Source: a virus (lineage: Duplodnaviria; Heunggongvirae; Uroviricota; Caudoviricetes). Taken from it: a stretch of 64,000 bases of DNA. A model generated the notes under the pieces. That model was not told where the DNA came from. It saw only the letters and a list, made by a program, of their open reading frames with translations, and searched no databases. The translations under genes and the position numbers were made by a program. Positions 20,208 through 46,404 of the stretch are shown piece after piece. The DNA is taken from positions 2,458 to 66,457 of IMG/VR virus record IMGVR_UViG_3300031760_000013. One strand, 5' to 3'. The number at the start of each line of letters is the position of its first letter. Within the stretch, counting starts at the first letter, position 1.

Positions 20208-21431
20208 CTATTCTGATGCTTTGAAGTTATATATTGGTCTGATTACTGAATCAATGTGTACAGTGGGGCCAATATTATTTACGATATCATCAACTCGTTT
20301 GTACGCCATAGGAGATTCATCGAGTGTACTAAGATTCACGGATGTCGTGTATATCCCCTCCATAGCTTGTTCGAATTCCTCCAACGGAATAGTCTCTTTA
20401 GCTTTAGAACGGCTCATAATTCGCCCAGCACCATGCGGAGCTGAATAGTTCCAATCTGGGTTACCTTTCCCAGTGCAGATTAAAGACCCATCTCTCATAT
20501 TGATAGGAATGAGGAGCTTCTCACCTCCACGAGCAGAAACCGCGCCCTTTCTCAATATCATGTATTCTGTATCAATATAGTTATGAATGGTCTCAAATTC
20601 TTCAACTGGTATCCAGTTCATATATTTACAAATCGTATCAGCAATTGCCTTTCGATTTAGGTGAGCAAACTGCTGTGCGATTCGCATATCGTGGATATAA
20701 TCATCAAACAGTTTCCCTTCGCACCAAGCCAATTCTTTTGGTGCAGCCGGATAATCTTTCTTAAGCTTTTTCAGAGCATCAGATATTTCTGACTGTTTCC
20801 CTTGTACTTTTAATGTTTCAATTACTTCTTTTCTGGCATCTTCAGTCGGGCCAGAATGCGACTTAGCAGCGAGGCGCTGGTAATGTGTGCAGATATCGAC
20901 CCCTAGATGCCGGCTACCAGTGTGAATAACAAGGTACACGTCCCCAGTATCATCATTTTTATCTAATTCAATAAAGTGATTTCCTCCACCAAGAGATCCC
21001 AGTGAAAGATATGCCCGGACCAGATCCGCATTATTCTTACAAACAAGGTCTTCAAGCTTAATATTTTTTGTTAAAGGATGTTGTTGAGTACGTATGCTCA
21101 TCCCAGATGTGACAATTGGCTCTGTCTCGTTGTAACCATGAAGTGCAGTATCTAATCTTTCGAAATCCAAGACTGATCCTTTTGAAAGCTTTACAGTCAA
21201 CATCCCACAACCAATATCTACGCCAACCAGATTAGGGCATATTTTGTCTGAAATAGTCATGGTAGTTCCGATTGTGCACCCAGCGCCTGCATGTATATCA
21301 GGCATCATGCGTATGGTTTGATTATGCGCATATGGTTGATTTGCCAGTTGGATAACTTGAGAAATAGCTTCAGGTTCAACCACGTCTGTATATATTTTTG
21401 CATTAGCGTACTTCCCTACTACTTCAAACAT
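20208..21431 (-). CDS. rtcB: RtcB-family 3'-phosphate/5'-OH RNA ligase
   Basis: 407 aa. MPDIHAGAGCTIGTTM and GGGNHFIELD match the conserved RtcB metal-binding and His-rich motifs. Confidence 0.8.
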   Translation of the reverse strand: MFEVVGKYANAKIYTDVVEPEAISQVIQLANQPYAHNQTIRMMPDIHAGAGCTIGTTMTISDKICPNLVGVDIGCGMLTVKLSKGSVLDFERLDTALHGYNETEPIVTSGMSIRTQQHPLTKNIKLEDLVCKNNADLVRAYLSLGSLGGGNHFIELDKNDDTGDVYLVIHTGSRHLGVDICTHYQRLAAKSHSGPTEDARKEVIETLKVQGKQSEISDALKKLKKDYPAAPKELAWCEGKLFDDYIHDMRIAQQFAHLNRKAIADTICKYMNWIPVEEFETIHNYIDTEYMILRKGAVSARGGEKLLIPINMRDGSLICTGKGNPDWNYSAPHGAGRIMSRSKAKETIPLEEFEQAMEGIYTTSVNLSTLDESPMAYKRVDDIVNNIGPTVHIDSVIRPIYNFKASE

Positions 21432-34458: not shown

Positions 34459-34573
34459 ATACCTCCCTTCTAAGCCTACATCCCAGCGTTTTAATTCTAA
34501 ATGATACCTGCCTTAGATCTGTTCATAATCTCCATCGTCGATGGAGACTTATGAATGCGCGAGAACCCCCGTC

Positions 34574-34599: not shown

Positions 34600-34710
34600 A
34601 TTGTTCTCCCTTTTTATCAAACCGTTACTTCCACTTACAGCAAGAAGCAGTTGAATTTATGTAAACCATTTCAACTAATCTACATCATAAGGCAGTGCAA
34701 AAATATTCAT

Positions 34711-38308: not shown

Positions 38309-38798
38309 TTATATTTCCTTTCATTCCATGTAGTCTATATATGGTATTTGTATGAGCCCGACGACGTCGATCGTTTAGCAGGACATCCTCCGACCGGCTT
38401 GGATGAACTGTTTGGTCAGAGCTTAAGACTCAAGGAAGGCTGTTTTAATTGTGTGATTTGCGTGTGTGGTGGCTAGTGTACTGATAAAATGCCTAACTTT
38501 GAATTTTAATTTGTCTGCCGGTGAGGCTTCCTCGAAACGTTCCAGCGGTATCCGGACGCCCGCGGCGCTCCCGGGACGGCGTCGTGTCCCGCTCAAATCG
38601 TTACTTCCGCTTACAGCAAGAAGCTGTTTCATAAGAAACAAATTGCACTACATGTTTATATTTTTTAGGGGGAAGTTGGCTCATGCACTACCGTCGTAGC
38701 ATTGGAACCAATACCATTACAGCAATATGAGGGAGGGCACATTGCTTTTTCTGGCGACAGCATCTCTGTCATTAAGCATGATTTGATCCTCACTTACG

Positions 38799-38874
38799 TG
38801 GTACCGCTGGATGGAGTTGAACCATCGTCTTTGGCTTATAAGGCCACTGCTTCTAACCATTGAGCTACAGCGGC
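38799..38874 (-). tRNA. tRNA (anticodon loop CUUAUAA, so anticodon UAU, Ile-type), CCA encoded
   Basis: Minus-strand sequence GCCGCUGUAGCUCAAUGGUUAGAAGCAGUGGCCUUAUAAGCCAAAGACGAUGGUUCAACUCCAUCCAGCGGUACCA folds as a cloverleaf: a 7-bp acceptor stem with one G-U, a GG D-loop, T-arm GAUGG/UUCAACU/CCAUC and 3' CCA. The D-stem has one irregularity. Confidence 0.55.
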
Positions 38875-39300
38875 ATATCCTTGCGATCTATACGCCTAAA
38901 AGTCTGAGTTGGCGTATACTATTCTGGCATTTTCGGAGCAAGATAATTTAGATTCACCTGAAAACGTAGAAAATTGAAGATCAAAATCCCTAAGGATTTT
39001 GTCGAAATTTTCGAGGCTTTCAGGTGCAGATGAATTATCTTGTGGAGAAAATGTAGCTACCATTTCAACACTCTCGCTTACAGCAAAGAGCGGCTGTAAT
39101 TATGTATTACCACTTACAACCAATCTGCATCGCAAGGTTACTTGACGTATGTCAAGTATTCCCTTTATTGTAACCGATTAATCGGTCGAGTTCTCTGGCG
39201 ATATCTTCCCGCCTTCTGGACATCATGTCTTTTGGGCTCCTTTTCCTATGCATAAGTCGCCATAAACGAAACGCGTCTTTTAATTCCGCGAATTTCTCAA

Positions 39301-39609
39301 TTACCCACAAAGTAATTCACCCCACAAACTGTTAAATTCATCATCACTGATATCTGGTGGCGGTGAGCACGCTAACTCACTGAACATTTCGTCTGTCCAT
39401 CTGTAATTCCACATATCTACGCTTTCCCCGGAAGATACAAGATATTGGCCATTTAAATAATCAGAGATTTGAACTACTTTTCCTCTAAGCTTGCACATAT
39501 CATCAGTCGCACTATTACTAGCGCTATGGTCTTCCATGCTGTAATGCATACCTTCTATCAAGTCTTCTCTTACAATGACTCTATCGCCTATTTGGTATTT
39601 CATATTCAC
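39301..39609 (-). CDS. small protein, GDRV-barrel/WTDEM family
   Basis: 102 aa; GDRVIVREDL, RWTDEMF and C-terminal DDEFNSLWGEL. Confidence 0.45.
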   Translation of the reverse strand: MNMKYQIGDRVIVREDLIEGMHYSMEDHSASNSATDDMCKLRGKVVQISDYLNGQYLVSSGESVDMWNYRWTDEMFSELACSPPPDISDDEFNSLWGELLCG

Positions 39610-39812: not shown

Positions 39813-40313
39813 TCATTCCGTCAGAAATTCAAAGAATTCCTCATCTGAGAACACATCTTTAATCTCGGAATCGATAAGCCGGATACTGTCCCATGGTACA
39901 TTCCAACCATGTTTAACATCGCATTCTCCACCGCAAGAATGCCCGTTGATGTTTCTATCCCATCTTACGCCAATCCATTCCCCGCGGTCTTCGCTTTCAA
40001 GATAAACAATTGTTCCGCGGTCTCCGGCCCGTAAGTGTCCACCATCTAATTTAATTAAGCCAGAATACTCTACTCTGTCCCCAACTCTGAAGTCGTCGCA
40101 TATTCCCCTAAGTGAGTCTGGATGGAGGTACCAGCCGTGCTCGTCGTTACACCGGCCATCACATGTATGCCCTCGATGTATCGCCATGTCGAATTCGACT
40201 CCGATTGAGCCGCCACCAAAGGATACACTTACGACTGTTCCTCGATATCCCATTTGGATATCGCCAATTTTTACATCGCTGATGTATTCTACACGATCCC
40301 CAAGATCAAACAT
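39813..40313 (-). CDS. tandem-duplicated GDRV/HGW-domain protein with C-terminal SDEEFFEFL tail
   Basis: 166 aa. Two internal repeats, each GDRVEY...G.RGT.V...GV.....GH.C.G.C...HGW..P.DS. Confidence 0.45.
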   Translation of the reverse strand: MFDLGDRVEYISDVKIGDIQMGYRGTVVSVSFGGGSIGVEFDMAIHRGHTCDGRCNDEHGWYLHPDSLRGICDDFRVGDRVEYSGLIKLDGGHLRAGDRGTIVYLESEDRGEWIGVRWDRNINGHSCGGECDVKHGWNVPWDSIRLIDSEIKDVFSDEEFFEFLTE

Positions 40314-40321
40314 AATTTACC

Positions 40322-40639
40322 TCACAAACCTAAGAACAAGGTAAACTCATCGTCAGAGCATGCATCAAATTCTTCGGATTCCTGCAGTTTTTCCACGTTA
40401 TATTTGTTCGTATTCCAACCATGGCCTACTTCGCATGCCCCATCATTGGAATGCCCGTTCGGCAGTGCCTCATCCCATGCAATGTAAACCCATGTAATAT
40501 CTTCTGGGCAATCTTGCAAAACCGTCCCGGTCATACCGTACTTTAAATGACCGTTATCTTCGGCACGTTCGCTTACAAATATTATCCGGTCGCCCTTACG
40601 TAAAACTTGGCGTTCTCTATCATATTTACACATCTTCAT
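40322..40639 (-). CDS. GDRV/HGW-domain protein with C-terminal DDEFTLFLGL tail
   Basis: 105 aa; KGDRIIFV...GHSNDGACEVGHGWN; single copy of the repeat found in 39813..40313. Confidence 0.45.
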   Translation of the reverse strand: MKMCKYDRERQVLRKGDRIIFVSERAEDNGHLKYGMTGTVLQDCPEDITWVYIAWDEALPNGHSNDGACEVGHGWNTNKYNVEKLQESEEFDACSDDEFTLFLGL

Positions 40640-40741: not shown

Positions 40742-40966
40742 TCACAAACAGAACTGTGGATTACACCCTTCACCCTGATGTGGGCAACTCTTACAGGTAG
40801 AACCTTGGGTTATATCATTTACCTGTGAAGCAAAACCTTCTCTCAATTCTTCTTCTATGTTTTCCCGGTTCTCGTCAGTTCTTAAATCAACCACTGTGAT
40901 ACCAAGCATTTTCCAAATCTCTTCAAAAGTCCCTTCAACATAGACACCCTTAATTTTTGCTTTCAT
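40742..40966 (-). CDS. small protein with C-terminal Cys cluster
   Basis: 74 aa; CKSCPHQGEGCNPQFC; 9 nt downstream of the RT gene. Confidence 0.35.
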   Translation of the reverse strand: MKAKIKGVYVEGTFEEIWKMLGITVVDLRTDENRENIEEELREGFASQVNDITQGSTCKSCPHQGEGCNPQFCL

Positions 40967-40974
40967 ATTAACCC

Positions 40975-42129
40975 CTATCCAGCAAGATCCTCTTTAATCA
41001 GTTTCTTGATGCTCCCGCAACCAAGCTTCTCACCAAGATAACCAACCAGCTCGTCAATTTTTCTGCCTTCAACCATCTTGTAATAATTATAGAGCCCGTT
41101 CATAACTTGGATATCCTCCAAATCCCACGGATTCCCGTTCTGCCTATCTTTCACATAGTTTGTGAGCATCGCCTGAAATCTGCGCTTAGTTTTATGCCCA
41201 ATAGTTATTTCGTTCTGCCCGTTAAGACAGCATCCAAGCAGAAAGTTATGTCCAGAAGAAGAACCGTACCTTGTCTTTGCGGTATTGAGCTGGAACGGCG
41301 CATTAAATGTTGCAAGTGAGCTGATAATTTCCTGCTCGATTTTTCTGAAGTCGAAATCATACCGAGACGAAATGATAAAGTCATCGGCATATCTCGTATA
41401 CACGAAGCGCTGCTTATCGAAATCCCTGAGTTCCTTCGATAGCTTATAGTCGATTGGAATCATCATGATGTTGGTTATCAGCGGAGAGATCGGAGTGCCC
41501 TGCGGAAGCCCGCCATTCAGAATTGCTAACTCAAGAGCAGATTCCAAAGCACTTCTTCCTCTTTCGGTCTTAACCACTTCAGAAAACGGGTATACCATAG
41601 AGAACATCTGCATGATAAATTCCAGAGTTGTGCTACCAAAGAAGTCATGCAGGTCATATTTACAAAACCACTTGCTCTCATTTGACTGATGACGCTTCAC
41701 CGCATCAAGCGTAGACCGTTTCTTGATATACGCAAAAGCCGATGTGTGATACAGCGCCTTACAATCATTCTCAAAAATACCTTTCAGTGTTCTAAGTGCG
41801 CTCATCAAGTCGTCTTCCGGCGCATTAATCTCACGAAGGCCGCCAGATTTTTTAGGAATATAAAACTTATAGTATGATTCCTGCCTTGGCTTAGATTTAA
41901 TTCTAGCCACTACATCTGATGTGTTAAAAGCTTCGAGCTTGAGGATGATGCGTCCAATGCTTATACCAAGTTTTCTTTCTACCCTATCAGACACATACTC
42001 CATTTCATAAGTACGTGTGTTTGTAAGATTCTCATTGATTACGCCTGGCGTAGTCGATGTCTGGAAGAGAAACTCCTCCAAAGTCATCTGGTGATACGTC
42101 GGCGGCATCTTGACAACGACATATACCAT
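40975..42129 (-). CDS. reverse transcriptase (retron-type, no maturase/endonuclease domains)
   Basis: 384 aa. RT motifs YIPKKSGGLREI (motifs 1-2), LPQGTPISPLITNIMM (motif 4, QGxxxSP) and YTRYADDFII (motif 5, YADD). GGGAGG RBS. Confidence 0.85.
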   Translation of the reverse strand: MVYVVVKMPPTYHQMTLEEFLFQTSTTPGVINENLTNTRTYEMEYVSDRVERKLGISIGRIILKLEAFNTSDVVARIKSKPRQESYYKFYIPKKSGGLREINAPEDDLMSALRTLKGIFENDCKALYHTSAFAYIKKRSTLDAVKRHQSNESKWFCKYDLHDFFGSTTLEFIMQMFSMVYPFSEVVKTERGRSALESALELAILNGGLPQGTPISPLITNIMMIPIDYKLSKELRDFDKQRFVYTRYADDFIISSRYDFDFRKIEQEIISSLATFNAPFQLNTAKTRYGSSSGHNFLLGCCLNGQNEITIGHKTKRRFQAMLTNYVKDRQNGNPWDLEDIQVMNGLYNYYKMVEGRKIDELVGYLGEKLGCGSIKKLIKEDLAG

Positions 42130-42157
42130 CTTATGTTCCTCCCTATTAAACTGTTAT

Positions 42158-42480
42158 ATAACTGTAATCTACGTGTGTGTGCCTGCAGGAACCGGGACCG
42201 TCTTCCTGGATCTGGAGTTGTAGTCTGCTGGCGAGCTCGCCATTACTGAGTAGCTTGTCATCGAGAAAGGAGCCTTGTTTTCCAAGATTTCGTATTTCTG
42301 ATGGCTAAGATTTTGCTACTAGGTCTTGATAAGACTCGATGACTGTGACAGCACGAGCAGCTGCTGGGTCATCGCTGCGGCGGAAGGCGTGCCCAGCCAT
42401 CGTTCACGCCTCTGCTCAAATCGTTACTTCCGCTTACAGCAAGAAGCACCATATTACTATGGTCATTGCATTACAGTTAT
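42158..42480 (-). ncRNA. candidate retron msr/msd-like non-coding RNA upstream of the RT
   Basis: A 323-nt non-coding region bounded by 11-bp inverted repeats ataactgtaat (42158-42168) and attacagttat (42470-42480). The downstream repeat lies 28 nt from the RT start, the a1/a2 geometry expected of a retron. The interior has a perfect palindrome tggcgagctcgcca and GC-rich pseudoknot-like stems. Confidence 0.35.
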
Positions 42481-42497: not shown

Positions 42498-42752
42498 TTA
42501 TTCGTTTTCCAAAATCTCAAGCAGATGTTTCCCGTGATCGGTGATTTTCATATGCTTGAGCATAGATTCGCAGTGCTCGCTCTTGAAGAATTCTTTGATT
42601 TCCTTTTTGGAATAACCCCATTCATCGCGAGTTATCCGCGAATCCTTTCCCCTATTGCAAAGGTCGCGGTAATCGTCAGCTGCCTTCTGCAAAATTGCCA
42701 TGGCAAGCTGAGCTGCACCGCGACCCCGCAACACCTCTAACGATTCTGGCAT
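42498..42752 (-). CDS. hypothetical protein
   Basis: 84 aa; between the E1-like gene and the RT leader. Confidence 0.35.
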   Translation of the reverse strand: MPESLEVLRGRGAAQLAMAILQKAADDYRDLCNRGKDSRITRDEWGYSKKEIKEFFKSEHCESMLKHMKITDHGKHLLEILENE

Positions 42753-43423
42753 CAGAATACGTCCAGAATCCCACTAAAGCCATCGATCTGGCCGAACTTC
42801 CAAATACCTTCACCCTTAACAAACTTTATGTAATTGTTCACACACATCGCACAGATGAGGCGGACAGTTGTCACAACTCCGAGTGTAATTCCGCACGCGC
42901 TCACTGGAGTCTCGTTTTTTGCCTCTTCGTGTGAAAACTGCATAGAGTTCAGAAGGTTCTGGCGTGACTGGTAATCACTCCAGTCTGCCCCATACATCTG
43001 CGCTCCCGTTAGAGCCGTTCTCACGTCGAACACCGCTTTTAAGAAAGGGTGATCCATGTGCTGCTCAACAAATTTCCTGCGCAGTTCTATATTGTCCGGG
43101 CAAAGGAACACATACCCCGATAGCATTTTCCCCTGCCACCCTTCCGGTTTGATCTTGATCGAATCTTTTGCTTCCGGATTAATTTCCAGAATAAGATCCC
43201 GCAGCGCCTCGACCTTAAGCCTTCCGATATCCTGCTGTCTGAACATCTGGTTCACGATGTTGTGCTTTTCGACCTTGTCGAAATCATAAAGCGTCATCTT
43301 TGTAATGCCGCACCGAGCAAGATTTTCCGCGATTGTCGAGCCGACTGACCCGCAGCCGATTATATGAATCATCGCGTCATCTTTTTCCGGCTGGAAGAAT
43401 TCATAGCTTTTACTGAGATCCAT
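42752..43423 (-). CDS. ThiF/MoeB-family E1-like adenylyltransferase (minimal adenylation domain)
   Basis: 223 aa. HIIGCGSVGSTIAENLARCGITKMTLYDFDKVEKHNIVNQMF reproduces the E1 Rossmann GxGxxG plus the D.D.VE..N(L)xRQ nucleotide-binding signature. Confidence 0.6.
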   Translation of the reverse strand: MDLSKSYEFFQPEKDDAMIHIIGCGSVGSTIAENLARCGITKMTLYDFDKVEKHNIVNQMFRQQDIGRLKVEALRDLILEINPEAKDSIKIKPEGWQGKMLSGYVFLCPDNIELRRKFVEQHMDHPFLKAVFDVRTALTGAQMYGADWSDYQSRQNLLNSMQFSHEEAKNETPVSACGITLGVVTTVRLICAMCVNNYIKFVKGEGIWKFGQIDGFSGILDVF

Positions 43424-43424
43424 A

Positions 43425-43916
43425 TTACCCTCCGATCATTTCATTTGCTTCACGCAAACCATTACCAAGAGCTTCGAGCTCTTCCTCCGTAAACCTCTGC
43501 ACACAATCCCTGCTTTCGGAAAGCATATCCATCACCGTGCATTCTTCTTCCTCGACCTCGAAAGGATCGTACGGTTCAAATGGCTCTTCCTCTTCGTCAT
43601 CTTCCCAGGCGTCGTTTTCATCCGCCCAATCACGAACTTCGCCTTTCCAGTAATCAAAATCCGCCGGACGCCATTCGCCATAATATTCGTCATACTCATA
43701 GTAATCATAACCACTATTGTCACGATACCTATCAAGTATATTGAACAAATCTTGCCACGTGTTATCTCTGGCAAGATCGACAAGACTTTCATCGATAATT
43801 TCGTCACGCGAATCTGCAGAGATTACATCCTCAAGAAGATAGCAGCCGACATCGTCGCAGAACTGATTCAGGTCATAGAAATCATTAACGTCATCGATAA
43901 ATGTAGAACGATTCAT
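43425..43916 (-). CDS. highly acidic protein ending in Gly-Gly (candidate ubiquitin-like/sulfur-carrier-like partner of the E1-like enzyme)
   Basis: 163 aa with very Asp/Glu/Tyr-rich repeats (DYYEYDEYYGEW, EDDEEEEPFEPYDPFEVEEEE). C-terminus ...NEMIGG followed by the stop codon. AGGAGG RBS. Beta-grasp fold not verifiable by eye. Confidence 0.4.
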   Translation of the reverse strand: MNRSTFIDDVNDFYDLNQFCDDVGCYLLEDVISADSRDEIIDESLVDLARDNTWQDLFNILDRYRDNSGYDYYEYDEYYGEWRPADFDYWKGEVRDWADENDAWEDDEEEEPFEPYDPFEVEEEECTVMDMLSESRDCVQRFTEEELEALGNGLREANEMIGG

Positions 43917-43928
43917 ATTTTCCTCCTA

Positions 43929-44933
43929 TCAATAATAGAACCCGTCACTATACCCGAACGGGCCATACGGGTCGTCCATTTCATCGGCATAGATACCGGA
44001 TGCCCTGTATGGCGATCTGTCGGATTTTTTCTTCTCTTTTTTCTCGGAACGTTTGAATTTCTTCCCGAGATGTTTTTTCTTTGACTCGGGGTACTCCTTC
44101 TTTTCCTGCTTGTCCACTTGTGCCACCTGTACCTGCTTAGGTTGTTCAACCTTTGCGATCGGGGCCACAGGCGCAGGTTTTACCTGTTCTGGTTTCTGGG
44201 TATAATTATTTCTATATACGGACTGCAATTGTTCTTGATTTAAGTTGTACGCAGACCCGTTGTAATTCCCGTACTGCTGGTATGCCGGTTTATTTTCCGT
44301 GATCATTCCCTTTGCTTCACGCAAGAACTTTTCAACTCCGCATTCATCTTCGATCACGTTAACCGTCACGTCGGAAGTATCAAACATGACATTCTTTTTC
44401 ATGTCATAGATCTTATACATACATTCCCCGCGCTTGTTATAGATCATGAATATGTAAAACATCGTATCATCGAGTTGGCCGAGAAGCTTTTCATACAAAT
44501 CATTATCAGTTACCGATGGCGTAACTCCCATATTTACATGGGAATGCCCCTGCATTCTGATATTGTTGAATACCTCATCTTCCTGCTTCATCAACCATTC
44601 CTGGTACTTAATCTGATCTGTGTTGACATTCGCCGCGGAAACTACCTGCGGGTATACCAGAATGTCTGTGATATAATACTCGTCTTTCGTCTCATCTTCG
44701 CCACGATAAGCAAGCCCATGCCAACCAACTTCTTTATCACATTCCCTGATCAATGACGTCATTTTCAGCCATGCAATTTCGGTGAAATAAACCGTACATG
44801 GACGTTTTGTCGCCATCAATGCTCGATGAAAATCGATCTTGCCATCCATCAGCTTTGCAGATTTCAGGATACTTTCAAATTCCTGTCTCCACTGGCTGAT
44901 ATTATCCTCTGTTATCTTAATTGCTTTCGCCAT
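43929..44933 (-). CDS. JAMM/MPN+ family metalloprotease (JAB deubiquitinase-like) with Lys-rich C-terminal tail
   Basis: 334 aa. Exact JAMM motif HSHVNMGVTPSVTD (HxHx7Sx2D) with an upstream Glu (EVGWHG). C-terminal third is low-complexity and Lys/Pro-rich. Confidence 0.65.
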   Translation of the reverse strand: MAKAIKITEDNISQWRQEFESILKSAKLMDGKIDFHRALMATKRPCTVYFTEIAWLKMTSLIRECDKEVGWHGLAYRGEDETKDEYYITDILVYPQVVSAANVNTDQIKYQEWLMKQEDEVFNNIRMQGHSHVNMGVTPSVTDNDLYEKLLGQLDDTMFYIFMIYNKRGECMYKIYDMKKNVMFDTSDVTVNVIEDECGVEKFLREAKGMITENKPAYQQYGNYNGSAYNLNQEQLQSVYRNNYTQKPEQVKPAPVAPIAKVEQPKQVQVAQVDKQEKKEYPESKKKHLGKKFKRSEKKEKKKSDRSPYRASGIYADEMDDPYGPFGYSDGFYY

Positions 44934-46404
44934 TTGCAGTTGCCTCCCCTTCCTGCAGTTTCAGATATTCGATTGCTTCCTTCGGTTTTACTACGCTGCC
45001 ATCCGGCAGTTCAAAGCATTTATTGTTCGTGCTGTAATCGCTTATGCCATAAATCCTCTTGAAGAATTCACGCATAACGGTACCGTCCCCAAAGTTCAAA
45101 CTCTTGCATGATGCGATGCACTGTTCAATCGCGCCGATATAATCCCTATTTCTAAGGAACATATTAATCTGACGTTCGTAATTCCCGAGACAACGATATG
45201 CGTCAATGTGAGTATTCGGCATATAATCTCGGAATTCCGAGCCATACTCATACCCACCCATCGCACTGACATTACCTTCAAGACGGAAATGATATGCTGC
45301 ACAGAATCTGATCTTTATTGTCTGATCAATAAACACTGCACGCATCAGCTTTTCCATGTCTTCTTCCGGAATAATGTTGTTACACCCACGATCGTTCGGG
45401 CGATACATGAGACTGCGCTTATTCCCGATCATGCTCTCAGCAGCATCTTCGTCGAAATACTGGAGATAATCTTTCACAACGAATTCCATCACTGTATCAT
45501 CTACCTTCATTAGTGACAGTTTCCTATTGTTGATAAAGTACTGCATGATCTCAGATTCTTCATCGCCGCTTGCAAGCTTTGTTTCAATCCCCAGAAGAAC
45601 GGTTTCCTGGTCTCTTCTCTTACGCAGATATTCCCCAATTTCTTCGTTCAATCTTTCGATCGTCCTATCGATCTCACCGATATTATTAGCGACTTCCGTC
45701 CTGCGGAGACGCTCATATTTCAACTCAAACCCTCCAAGCATTCCCTTAATGCCTGCGGTTCTGAAATCGTAATGAGATGCGATCTGATCAACACACTCGA
45801 GATATCTGTCCGGCGTTTTCTCTCTGAGAGAATGAATCAGCGACATTTCCTCATCGGATACACCATTTTTCGGATCAAAATACCAAGGTAAGAACGCAAA
45901 TACACCACACTGCAGATAATGCATTCTGCGTGTGTCCATATTATCCGTGAAGATGTAAACGCTGCGTCGCTCAACATTCACATAACACAGAACTTTGAAA
46001 ACTTTCCGGTAAAAATCCGTGACCTTTGTTACGCGATGCCATCCCGCACACATGCTCTCGAGGTTGTTTTCGATCGCGTGGAATACCTTTTCCGACGCTT
46101 CGTCTGAACCAGTCGAGATGTTCTTAATAAACAGGATACCATCACCCATGCGATTAACATGAACACACTGATCGTTCGCAATAGTTTCCTCTGTCTTTGA
46201 CCGAACATCGCTTGGACGCATTGACTGTGAATAATACGAAAAAGTGAGGTTGTCATCCTCTCCCATTCTTGGCGCAACTAATGCACGCAATGTAGATATG
46301 AACGTGCTATCACCATTCACCATATCGCCCCAGATTTTCCCTCTGAAATACTCTTCCGCGAACGGTGTGGTCAGAGACGTTCCACGAATTAAGTCTCTAA
46401 ACAC
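44917..46404 (-). CDS. hypothetical protein (495 aa)
   Basis: Long ORF with no motif I can name. Confidence 0.45.
   Translation of the reverse strand: MFRDLIRGTSLTTPFAEEYFRGKIWGDMVNGDSTFISTLRALVAPRMGEDDNLTFSYYSQSMRPSDVRSKTEETIANDQCVHVNRMGDGILFIKNISTGSDEASEKVFHAIENNLESMCAGWHRVTKVTDFYRKVFKVLCYVNVERRSVYIFTDNMDTRRMHYLQCGVFAFLPWYFDPKNGVSDEEMSLIHSLREKTPDRYLECVDQIASHYDFRTAGIKGMLGGFELKYERLRRTEVANNIGEIDRTIERLNEEIGEYLRKRRDQETVLLGIETKLASGDEESEIMQYFINNRKLSLMKVDDTVMEFVVKDYLQYFDEDAAESMIGNKRSLMYRPNDRGCNNIIPEEDMEKLMRAVFIDQTIKIRFCAAYHFRLEGNVSAMGGYEYGSEFRDYMPNTHIDAYRCLGNYERQINMFLRNRDYIGAIEQCIASCKSLNFGDGTVMREFFKRIYGISDYSTNNKCFELPDGSVVKPKEAIEYLKLQEGEATANGESN

What the first reader, a model, noticed from the sequence alone, without database searches (positions are those of the whole stretch)
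40975..42480. Retron-like reverse transcriptase with an upstream ncRNA bounded by inverted repeats, inside a phage genome
The 384-aa RT has motifs 1-2, 4 and 5. Motif 4 reads QGxxxSP and motif 5 is YTRYADD, as in retron Ec86, rather than the IGxxxSQ of DGR RTs. It has no maturase or endonuclease extension. Immediately 5' on the same strand is a 323-nt ORF-free region bounded by 11-bp inverted repeats. The downstream repeat is 28 nt from the RT start, matching the a1/a2 geometry of a retron msr-msd. The interior contains a perfect palindrome tggcgagctcgcca and two interleaved GC stems (AGGCGT..ACGCCT crossing GCTGGG..CCCAGC), suggesting a pseudoknot. Retrons are chromosomal anti-phage systems. 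A complete RT plus ncRNA carried by a phage is uncommon. It could be superinfection exclusion, counter-defence, or a different use of reverse transcription.
Basis: partly seen in the sequence, partly recalled or inferred. Interest (0 to 1): 0.8.

Follow-up and report, generated by a model that had tools for sequence, protein, structure and literature searches.

The report
Phage retron-like RT, multiple template RNAs
A large gut phage carries a retron-type reverse transcriptase plus at least two (probably three) retron-style template RNAs whose template portions evolve unusually fast; a similar design was described only recently, for an unrelated phage enzyme family, and its purpose is still unknown.

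Summary
The 384-aa ORF is a retron-clade reverse transcriptase (RT). The 323-nt region upstream is a retron-style ncRNA. In about 200 related units, the closing a1/a2 arms differ in sequence but stay complementary. A G follows a1, a G precedes a2, and two msr hairpins covary.

The larger result lies outside the reported coordinates. The window holds a second complete unit (38327-38654) and a third, degenerate one (about 34606-34669). Related phages carry 2-4 units per 13 kb, all on the RT strand. All units within a genome share a phage-specific hairpin 2. Arms, hairpin 1 and the roughly 200-nt body are private to each unit. Bodies diverge far faster than RT third-codon positions.

No retron effector was found. 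A conserved E1/JAB-type cassette sits upstream of the RT.

The family is large (430 clusters at 50% identity), uncultured, and found in gut phage contigs, mostly binned with Clostridia.

The closest design precedent is the UG27 ncRNA-array system (preprint, September 2026). This RT fails the UG27 tests: YADD not YSDD, retron models score best, and the units have a different architecture. I rate it a new variant of a known kind. cDNA synthesis is inferred, not shown, and the function is unknown.

The parts
40975..42129 (-). Retron-clade reverse transcriptase, 384 aa. Catalytic D159 and D249/D250 (YADD) are intact. It has a family-specific ~75-aa N-terminal extension.
42158..42480 (-). ncRNA unit 1, complete from a1 to a2 (323 nt), ending 28 nt before the RT start codon.
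   Evidence: (covariance-model hit, 58 bits).
42470..42480 (-). a1 arm of unit 1 (ATAACTGTAAT).
42469..42469 (-). G directly 3' of a1, the candidate branching and priming guanosine.
   Evidence: G in 126 of 126 distinct units; partly by construction, because the model includes this position.
42448..42463 (-). msr hairpin 1 (ACCATA..TATGGT). Its sequence is private to each unit.
   Evidence: all 6 pairs change on both sides.
42417..42446 (-). msr hairpin 2 (CTTCTTGC..GCGGAAG) plus the conserved AGTAACGATTTG motif. Inferred to be the RT-recognition element. An identical copy occurs in unit 2.
42172..42416 (-). Fast-evolving body, the putative template (msd-like) region.
42169..42171 (-). TAG directly 5' of a2. 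Its G opposes the branching G.
   Evidence: G in 122 of 126 units; TAG in 104 of the 164 units counted. This position was never used for selection.
42158..42168 (-). a2 arm of unit 1 (ATTACAGTTAT).
38327..38654 (-). ncRNA unit 2, complete. a1 is CATGTAGT (38647-38654), G at 38646, msr at 38582-38648, TATAG then a2 ACTACATG (38327-38334). It is followed by the ribosome-binding site and ATG of a 113-aa ORF, not by an RT.
   Evidence: (65 bits).
34606..34669 (-). msr-like module of unit 3, degenerate. Hairpin 2 plus motif is 94% identical to unit 1. The possible arms CTGCCTTA (34688-34695) and TAAGGCAG (34508-34515) are not followed by a G.
   Evidence: (38.6 bits).
39071..39091 (-). Isolated copy of the hairpin-2 stem-loop (GCTCTTTGCTGTAAGCGAGAG).
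   Evidence: 18.4 bits, E = 0.03.
42752..43423 (-). ThiF/E1-like adenylyltransferase, a conserved neighbour present in 101 of 115 loci. Any functional link to the RT is untested.
43929..46404 (-). Two conserved neighbours. The 334-aa protein has an intact JAMM motif (HSHVNMGVTPSVTD). The 495-aa domain-less protein shows weak E2/RWD-like fold hits. Any functional link to the RT is untested.

Best explanation
This is a phage-encoded, effector-less system built around a retron-clade RT that serves several template RNAs.

Proposed mechanism (every step is inferred by analogy with retrons):
1. The RT recognises a 5' module shared by all units of its genome: a G, hairpin 1, a phage-specific hairpin 2, and the motif AGUAAC-N3-UUG.
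2. Each unit folds through its own private a1/a2 helix. That places the G after a1 opposite the G before a2.
3. The RT primes from the 2'-OH of the first G and copies the variable body. The result would be a panel of different msDNA-like RNA-DNA molecules during infection.

What is shown: the RT's clade, the RNA architecture with covariation, the multiple units, the shared hairpin 2, and the fast body evolution.

Most likely role (weaker inference): the products act at a phage-host or phage-phage conflict interface, for example as decoys or sponges for nucleic-acid-sensing defences. This rests on the bodies evolving faster than near-neutral sites, the absence of a toxin effector, and the carrier looking like a large replication-autonomous phage.
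For: RT clade:
- all rank retron RTs first. The catalytic residues are invariant across the family alignment.

RNA architecture:
- Helices anchored at the nucleotide before the G reach 8 bp or more in 151 of 206 units, against 11 of 206 for an anchor shifted by 30 nt. Arm sequences differ between units.
- A G precedes a2 in 122 of 126 distinct units, a position never used for selection.
- In the msr, 90.2% of cells are paired against 65.5% in shuffles. 13 of 14 pairs change on both sides. The covariation score is 0.70 against 0.08-0.17 for slid controls.

Multiple units:
- Three covariance-model hits in the window. 203 hits in 84 viral loci and 69 hits in 34 further loci, all on the RT strand.
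- 75 of 84 loci have a unit just upstream of the RT, and 63 have one or more just downstream.
- The hairpin-2 apex is the same in all units of most genomes examined (in L024 one of three units differs) and differs between genomes.

Fast bodies:
- L013 vs L014: RT third-codon positions are 99.5% identical, the body 83%.
- The window against its relatives with 99% RT identity: 13-25 differences per 100 nt in the bodies of units 1 and 2, against roughly 1-9 in RT-gene bins.

No effector.

Precedent that phage RTs copy arrays of ncRNA units into cDNA: the UG27 preprint.
Against: - No cDNA or msDNA has been observed for any member of this family.
- The body is not the single long hairpin typical of msd. 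Fold energies are not significant: z = -1.86 and -1.63 for the RNAs, -1.42 for the hypothetical cDNA.
- The literal NAxxH and VTG motifs are missing.
- Unit 3 lacks the G and has no convincing arms.
- The msr alignment was fitted to the model, which inflates pairing counts.
- All loci come from related phages whose genes in this region lie on the RT strand in the loci examined. Strand bias and synteny are therefore not independent evidence.
- Fast body evolution could reflect cassette recombination. Differences are clustered, and the transition/transversion ratio is 1.04 in bodies against 10 at RT third positions, partly an alignment and selection artefact. Other small ORFs nearby are also divergence hotspots.
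- The decoy or counter-defence role has no direct evidence.
Confidence: 0.6

Rival explanations
1. It is a defence or superinfection-exclusion retron. The RT-msDNA complexes hold an effector in check and release it when a competing phage infects. The effector would be unlinked, or would be the conserved E1/JAB/495-aa cassette upstream.
For: - Retrons characterised so far are defence systems.
- The upstream block stays next to the RT down to 38% RT identity. Look-ups starting from homologs of the 495-aa protein find an RT downstream.
- E1/JAB modules occur in defence systems: the ThiF-like protein hits the PADLOC E1-E2 models and the 6A-MBL cap2 model.
Against: - No known retron effector family is found in any neighbour.
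- In L124 seven genes separate the block from the RT, and some loci lack the ThiF or JAB gene.
- The synteny may only reflect common descent of these phages.
- An abortive toxin makes little sense for what looks like a lytic phage with its own replication genes.
- Several distinct templates per RT have not been described for defence retrons, to my knowledge.
Confidence: 0.15
2. The cDNA flows back into the phage genome. It would either anneal at its own locus, as in retron recombineering, or serve as a replication primer. RT errors would then accumulate exactly in the copied region, and the system would serve replication, recombination or self-diversification.
For: - The variable zone runs from about 55 nt after the G to about 10 nt before a2, essentially the stretch a retron RT would copy.
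- Bodies diverge many times faster than third-codon positions.
- The units lie in the replication module of the genome.
Against: - No second (target) copy of any body exists in the window.
- The substitution spectrum is not base-specific.
- Compensatory changes and conserved islands within bodies indicate selection on structure, not pure mutational input.
- No recombinase link was examined.
Confidence: 0.1
3. The units are RNA-only elements, such as processing, regulatory or stability signals of phage operons. The RT does not copy them, or copies only the unit next to it.
For: - Units often sit just before the ribosome-binding site and ATG of assorted genes.
- Fold energies are unremarkable.
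- No promoter or terminator signal was found above chance.
Against: - The hairpin-2 apex tracks the genome, and therefore the RT, across all units.
- Units cluster immediately around the RT gene in 75 and 63 of 84 loci.
- Every unit has the retron priming geometry of a1/a2 plus two opposing Gs.
- UG27 arrays were shown to be templates.
Confidence: 0.07
4. It is a divergent member of the UG27 reverse-transcriptase systems, which carry variable ncRNA arrays in gut phages.
For: - It shares the same habitat and the same design: arrays of structurally conserved, sequence-diverse units.
- UG27 partner proteins have no known domains. Neither do the 76-aa and 495-aa proteins here.
- The authors state that some UG27 clades escape their covariance model.
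Against: - YADD occurs in 140 of 151 nearest cluster representatives and YSDD in only 3. All five tested UG27 systems have YSDD.
- Retron profiles and structures outrank the class 2 UG/Abi relatives DRT2 and DRT9.
- Units have a median length of 296 nt, against 135-167 nt for UG27.
- The architecture is a1/a2 plus two Gs, not a hairpin with an internal loop.
- The UG27 motif AUCN7UANAG occurs in 1 of 154 units, against 3.3 expected by chance.
Confidence: 0.05
5. It is a diversity-generating retroelement (DGR) or a group II intron remnant.
For: The RT lies in a phage, and a nearby region is variable. The group II intron RT model scores 2.9e-26.
Against: - No template-repeat/variable-repeat pair exists in the window.
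- Substitutions are not adenine-specific.
- Motif 4 reads QGTPISP.
- No intron RNA or any other Rfam family is found.
- There is no maturase or endonuclease domain.
- DGR and group II RTs rank below retron RTs.
Confidence: 0.02

Closest known systems
Bacterial retrons (RT plus msr-msd ncRNA), such as Ec86, St85, Ec78 and Ec83
   Same: - The RT falls in the retron clade by profile, sequence and fold searches.
- The ncRNA lies directly upstream on the same strand and is closed by a1/a2 inverted repeats.
- A G follows a1 and a G precedes a2.
- The msr-like stem-loops covary.
- The H of NAxxH and the G of VTG are kept.
   Different: - There are several ncRNA units per RT, dispersed or in tandem.
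- No effector gene was recognised.
- The carrier looks like a large phage with its own replication genes.
- The literal NAxxH and VTG motifs are replaced by DAxxxH and [WFY]xLG.
- The RT has an extra conserved ~75-aa N-terminus.
- The body is about 200-250 nt, fast-evolving, and not a single long hairpin.
- msDNA has not been demonstrated.
UG27 reverse-transcriptase systems with variable ncRNA arrays (bioRxiv 10.64898/2026.09.22.753630; Mestre et al. 2022, PMC9226505)
   Same: - Both are encoded by phages of gut bacteria.
- One RT serves an array of structurally conserved, sequence-diverse ncRNA units, with extra units in neighbouring intergenic regions.
- Neither shows defence-island association.
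- The function of both is unknown.
   Different: - UG27 belongs to class 2 UG/Abi, not the retron clade.
- UG27 has YSDD, this family YADD.
- UG27 units are 135-167 nt, with a main hairpin, an internal loop, a pseudoknot, and the motifs AUCN7UANAG and UUYA. Units here are about 250-350 nt with an a1/a2 closure and two opposing Gs.
- UG27 needs the sORF and bORF partners. No equivalent has been established here.
Retron-like RT of Staphylococcus jumbo phage MarsHill (MW248466)
   Same: - It is a phage-borne retron-like RT without an effector.
- Its upstream 1.24-kb gene-free region holds five tandem units, spaced 173-213 nt apart. Each has a conserved two-hairpin module followed by a variable body, on the RT strand.
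   Different: - The RT is too distant to match at E = 1e-10. It is 501 aa with a ~200-aa N-terminal domain.
- The units are shorter and very AT-rich.
- a1/a2 pairing and the G context were not established.
Diversity-generating retroelements (DGRs)
   Same: A phage RT lies next to a locally hypervariable sequence.
   Different: There is no template-repeat/variable-repeat pair, no adenine-specific changes, no Avd, and the RT belongs to a different clade.

Membership tests
Retron | The RT belongs to the retron / retron-like clade. | tested here: met
   All 25 PADLOC hits shown are retron RT models, the best at 6.5e-46. NCBIfam retron_St85 scores 166 bits, below its family cutoff of 235. The top PDB sequence hits and the top 8 Foldseek hits are retron RTs.
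Retron | NAXXH motif in region X. | tested here: not met
   Aligned to the NAKIH of Ec83, the query reads AVKRH. The family pattern is DAxxxH with only H invariant. Mestre 2020 notes that H is the most conserved residue of the motif.
Retron | VTG triplet in RT domain 7 (region Y). | tested here: not met
   The query reads LLG. The family pattern is [WFY]xLG with LG invariant. Mestre 2020 notes that G is the most conserved residue of the motif.
Retron | An ncRNA adjacent to the RT, closed by a1/a2 inverted repeats. | tested here: met
   An 11-bp perfect inverted repeat, reached by 0 of 300 shuffles. Across the family, 151 of 206 units reach 8 bp or more against 11 of 206 for the control, with different arm sequences in each unit.
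Retron | A branching G at the inner end of a1, with an opposing G at the inner end of a2. | tested here: met
   G follows a1 in 126 of 126 distinct units, partly by construction. G precedes a2 in 122 of 126, independent of any selection.
Retron | Conserved msr stem-loops recognised by the RT. | tested here: met
   Two hairpins, with 13 of 14 pairs changing on both sides and a covariation score of 0.70 against 0.08-0.17 for slid controls. The hairpin-2 apex is genome-specific. Recognition by the RT is inferred.
Retron | The msd region forms a long stable stem-loop that is reverse-transcribed. | tested here: inconclusive
   The body is multi-branched. It has one long-range helix and a few compensatory pairs. 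Fold z-scores of -1.4 to -1.9 are not significant.
Retron | Production of 2'-5' branched msDNA. | not testable with these tools
   This needs RT-dependent ssDNA detection plus debranching or an RNase shift assay.
Retron | An associated effector, giving a tripartite system (about 75% of retrons have one). | tested here: not met
   None of the neighbours tested matches a retron effector family in Pfam, NCBIfam or PADLOC; PHROGs gives them no annotated function. The only hint is a weak WH_III-A hit (E = 0.0087) for the 84-aa ORF, which is present in few loci.
UG27 RT-ncRNA array system | A class 2 UG/Abi RT with a YSDD active site. | tested here: not met
   YADD in 140 of 151 representatives and YSDD in 3. 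Drt2 and DRT9 score far below retron RTs. No UG27 reference sequence was available for a direct comparison.
UG27 RT-ncRNA array system | ncRNA units of about 135-167 nt carrying the AUCN7UANAG and UUYA motifs. | tested here: not met
   Median unit length is 296 nt. The motif occurs in 1 of 154 units, against 3.3 expected by chance.
UG27 RT-ncRNA array system | sORF and bORF partner proteins that are required for cDNA synthesis. | not testable with these tools
   No reference sequences are held. The conserved domain-less 76-aa and 495-aa proteins lie 3-4.5 kb upstream and cannot be excluded as analogues.
UG27 RT-ncRNA array system | An array of structurally conserved, sequence-diverse units in a phage genome. 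| tested here: met
Diversity-generating retroelement | A template-repeat/variable-repeat pair with adenine-specific differences. | tested here: not met
   No second copy of the body exists in the window, and substitutions are of all types.
Group II intron | Intron RNA domains plus a maturase or endonuclease extension on the RT. | tested here: not met
   No Rfam hit. Only the RVT_1 domain is detected. The group II model scores 92 bits against its cutoff of 300.

The most novel reading that the evidence does not exclude
A retron-clade RT in phages that appear lytic services a set of rapidly diversifying templates. The resulting cDNAs would either re-enter the phage genome, making the templates self-diversifying, or form a fast-evolving library of single-stranded DNA decoys aimed at host immunity. 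On this reading, retron-like RTs (here and in MarsHill) and UG27 RTs would have arrived independently at 'one RT, many variable templates' as a general phage strategy.
Probability: 0.15. Interest if true: 0.9.

Novelty: new variant of a known kind. Interest (0 to 1): 0.7.

Why it matters
- Retrons are understood as one RT, one ncRNA and one toxin, working as bacterial anti-phage systems. Here the same RT clade and the same priming geometry appear in large gut phages without a toxin and with several templates per enzyme.
- Together with the newly described UG27 arrays and the MarsHill array, this suggests that template arrays next to phage RTs are a recurrent, independently evolved design. Nobody yet knows what it is for.
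- The family is abundant: 430 clusters at 50% identity at E ≤ 1e-30, and more than 500 viral contigs.
- The genome-specific hairpin 2 suggests a testable RT-recognition code.
- MarsHill is a cultured phage and offers an experimental entry point.
- A multi-template retron-type RT could also be useful for multiplexed in-cell DNA production.

Tried and rejected
- Rfam search, at gathering scores for the whole window and at permissive E-values for the upstream region: only the tRNA matched.
- Megablast of the region against deposited phages: no match. A protein search found no cultured phage with this RT.
- DGR test, by blasting the ncRNA against the window: no target copy. It did reveal the extra units.
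- Promoter and terminator scan: nothing above chance.
- Candidate UG27 references among the weak phage hits H3 and H5: both turned out to be ordinary retron-type RTs with NANPH/ITG or YTRYADD.
- Supplements of the two UG27 papers are not held, so no direct UG27 sequence comparison was possible.
- K-mer search for motifs shared between bodies: only generic GC-rich words and the terminal ATGTAG.
- Transition/transversion comparison as a mutational signature: confounded by alignment quality and by selection at third-codon positions.
- The proposed pseudoknot and palindrome: no compensatory support in the nearest relative.
Full report
**Observation**

The ORF at 40975-42129 on the minus strand encodes 384 aa with intact RT motifs, including LPQGTPISP and YTRYADD. 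Upstream on the same strand there is a perfect 11-bp inverted repeat, with arms at 42470-42480 and 42158-42168. The 3' arm ends 28 nt before the ATG. None of 300 shuffles of the 431-nt upstream region reaches 11 bp. In the closest relative both carry uncompensated changes. I therefore give the proposed pseudoknot no weight.

**The enzyme**

All 25 PADLOC hits shown are retron RT models, led by RT_II-A at 6.5e-46. NCBIfam retron_St85 scores 166 bits, which is below its family cutoff of 235. Group II introns score 92 bits and Drt2 43 bits. Solved retron RTs (Ec83, Ec78, Ec67, Ec86) lead both the sequence search and the Foldseek search of an AlphaFold model with pLDDT 81.

Aligned to Ec83, the retron NAxxH motif reads AVKRH and VTG reads LLG. 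Across 151 family representatives the patterns are DAxxxH and [WFY]xLG, with only H and LG invariant. YADD is present in 140 of the 151. Mestre et al. 2020 state that H and G are the most conserved residues of the two motifs. The RT is therefore a divergent lineage inside the retron clade. It also carries a conserved ~75-aa N-terminal extension. It is not a member of any defined retron type.

**The RNA**

In related viral loci the arms differ in sequence but remain complementary. Examples are ATAACTGTAAT, TATCTGTAAC, TTAGTTCAAA, TATGCAAT and GTCGCATATGAAATCA.

I built a covariance model of the module after a1, comprising the G, hairpin 1, hairpin 2 and the motif AGUAAC-N3-UUG. For every hit I then measured the longest perfect helix anchored at the nucleotide before the G. 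It reaches 8 bp or more in 151 of 206 units, against 11 of 206 for an anchor shifted by 30 nt. A G precedes a2 in 122 of 126 distinct units, usually as TAG. That position was never used for selection. This reproduces the 'two opposing G' hallmark of retron ncRNAs.

The two msr hairpins are 90% paired against 65% in shuffles. 13 of 14 pairs change on both sides, and the covariation score is 0.70 against 0.08-0.17 for slid controls. The caveat is that this alignment was fitted to the model.

**More than one template**

A blast of unit 1 against the window found an exact 34-nt copy of hairpin 2 plus motif at 38591-38624, and a 94% copy at 34617-34649.

- Unit 2 (38327-38654) is complete. It has its own arms (CATGTAGT and ACTACATG), the G, a different hairpin 1, TATAG before a2, and a 113-aa gene downstream instead of an RT.
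- Unit 3 is degenerate, and a lone hairpin-2 copy sits at 39071-39091.

Across 84 viral loci there are 203 hits, and across 34 further loci there are 69. All lie on the RT strand. Most 13-kb loci hold 2-3 units. 75 of 84 have one directly upstream of the RT, and 63 have one or two in tandem directly downstream. Even an RT that is only 38% identical has an upstream unit.

In most genomes examined all units share the hairpin-2 apex, and the apex differs between genomes (in L024 one of three units differs). It is GCTGTAAGC in the window, CGCCAAAGGC in L008, L026 and L031, TATTGTAAATC in L050, and GCGTTTCGC in L052 and L005. Arms, hairpin 1 and bodies are private to each unit. This is what co-evolution with a single RT would produce.

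**Fast-evolving bodies**

Between near-identical phages the msr and the last ~10 nt before a2 are conserved, while the stretch between them is riddled with substitutions and indels.

- L013 vs L014: RT third-codon positions are 99.5% identical, the body 83%.
- L079 vs L081: 97.1% against 81%.
- The window against its relatives with 99% RT identity: 13-20 differences per 100 nt in the unit 1 body and 25 in the unit 2 body, against roughly 1-9 in RT-gene bins.

Changes are of all types, clustered, and include indels. Some helices keep pairing through compensatory changes. Bodies start purine-rich with 9% T, then contain GC-rich hairpins, then a G-poor A/C-rich centre. They do not form a single long msd-like hairpin.

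**Context**

The window is the replication and nucleotide-metabolism region of a large phage. It encodes a DNA polymerase, a DnaB helicase, a primase, NrdD, RtcB and an exonuclease. No retron effector family is detected in any neighbour tested.

**Distribution**

430 clusters at 50% identity score E ≤ 1e-30, and more than 500 IMG/VR stretches encode relatives. No cultured phage carries the family. Genome hits are all metagenome-assembled contigs from animal and human guts, mostly binned as Clostridia.

**Comparison with known systems**

As a mechanism this looks like a retron. As a design it matches the UG27 systems. These are class 2 UG/Abi RTs of gut phages. A September 2026 preprint showed that they carry variable arrays of 135-167-nt ncRNAs, which are copied into 50-100-nt cDNA hairpins and require the sORF and bORF partners.

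Membership in UG27 is not supported. The active site is YADD rather than YSDD. Retron relatives score best. The units are about 296 nt and closed by a1/a2. The UG27 motif is absent. A direct comparison with UG27 sequences could not be made.

Independently, the 1.24-kb 'non-coding' region upstream of the retron-like RT of the cultured S. aureus jumbo phage MarsHill holds five tandem units. Each has a conserved two-hairpin module and a variable body.

**Mechanism and verdict**

Shown:
- a retron-clade RT;
- several retron-geometry ncRNAs that share an RT-linked hairpin;
- fast body turnover;
- no recognisable effector;
- a phage carrier.

Inferred:
- the RT primes from the G after a1 and copies each body, producing a panel of msDNA-like molecules;
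- these act at a conflict interface, for example as decoys or sponges.

The rivals are an exclusion retron with an unrecognised effector, cDNA feeding back into the genome, RNA-only elements, and UG27 membership. They are ranked in the Rival explanations section. I classify the finding as a new variant of a known kind, of high but not top interest. The concept of phage RT template arrays has just been published for another lineage, and nothing here is experimentally demonstrated.

Noticed in passing
window 38327-38654 (-), 34606-34669 (-) and 39071-39091 (-): Further retron-style ncRNA units lie outside the reported coordinates. Unit 2 is complete, unit 3 is degenerate, and there is an isolated hairpin-2 copy. 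All are on the RT strand, 3.5-7.5 kb downstream of the RT.
   Followed up: yes
[not shown]
   Followed up: partly
L120 23849-25089 (Staphylococcus phage MarsHill, MW248466.1, record ~213848-215088): The gene-free 1.24 kb upstream of MarsHill's retron-like RT holds five tandem units spaced 173-213 nt apart. Each has two conserved hairpins, with compensatory changes between copies, followed by a variable body. It is a comparable array in a cultured phage.
   Followed up: partly
window 38799-38874 (-) and 20208-21431 (-): A tRNA-Ile(TAT) gene lies immediately upstream of ncRNA unit 2. The phage also encodes an RtcB-type tRNA ligase. Together these hint at tRNA-directed conflict with the host.
   Followed up: no
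window 39813-40639 (-): Two adjacent genes (105 and 166 aa) encode one and two copies of an SH3-like repeat, GDRVEY...GH.C.G.C...HGW, matching the Xrn1 SH3-like family PF18129 at up to 1.7e-14. They lie just downstream of the RT.
   Followed up: no
window 40742-40966 (-), 39301-39609 (-), 43600-43900 and 44200-44300: Small ORFs and low-complexity segments near the RT are also divergence hotspots against the relatives with 99% RT identity (20-36 differences per 100 nt). The ncRNA bodies are therefore not the only fast-evolving spots.
   Followed up: no
window 42498-42752 (-): The 84-aa ORF between the ThiF gene and unit 1 gives a weak hit to the winged-helix partner of type III-A retrons (PADLOC WH_III-A, E = 0.0087). 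This ORF is present in only a few related loci.
   Followed up: no
L003, L004 and L006 around 2650-2955: Weak extra covariance-model hits (31 bits) lie about 3 kb upstream of the RT. They have only 6-bp arms and a shifted register, and may be decayed units.
   Followed up: no
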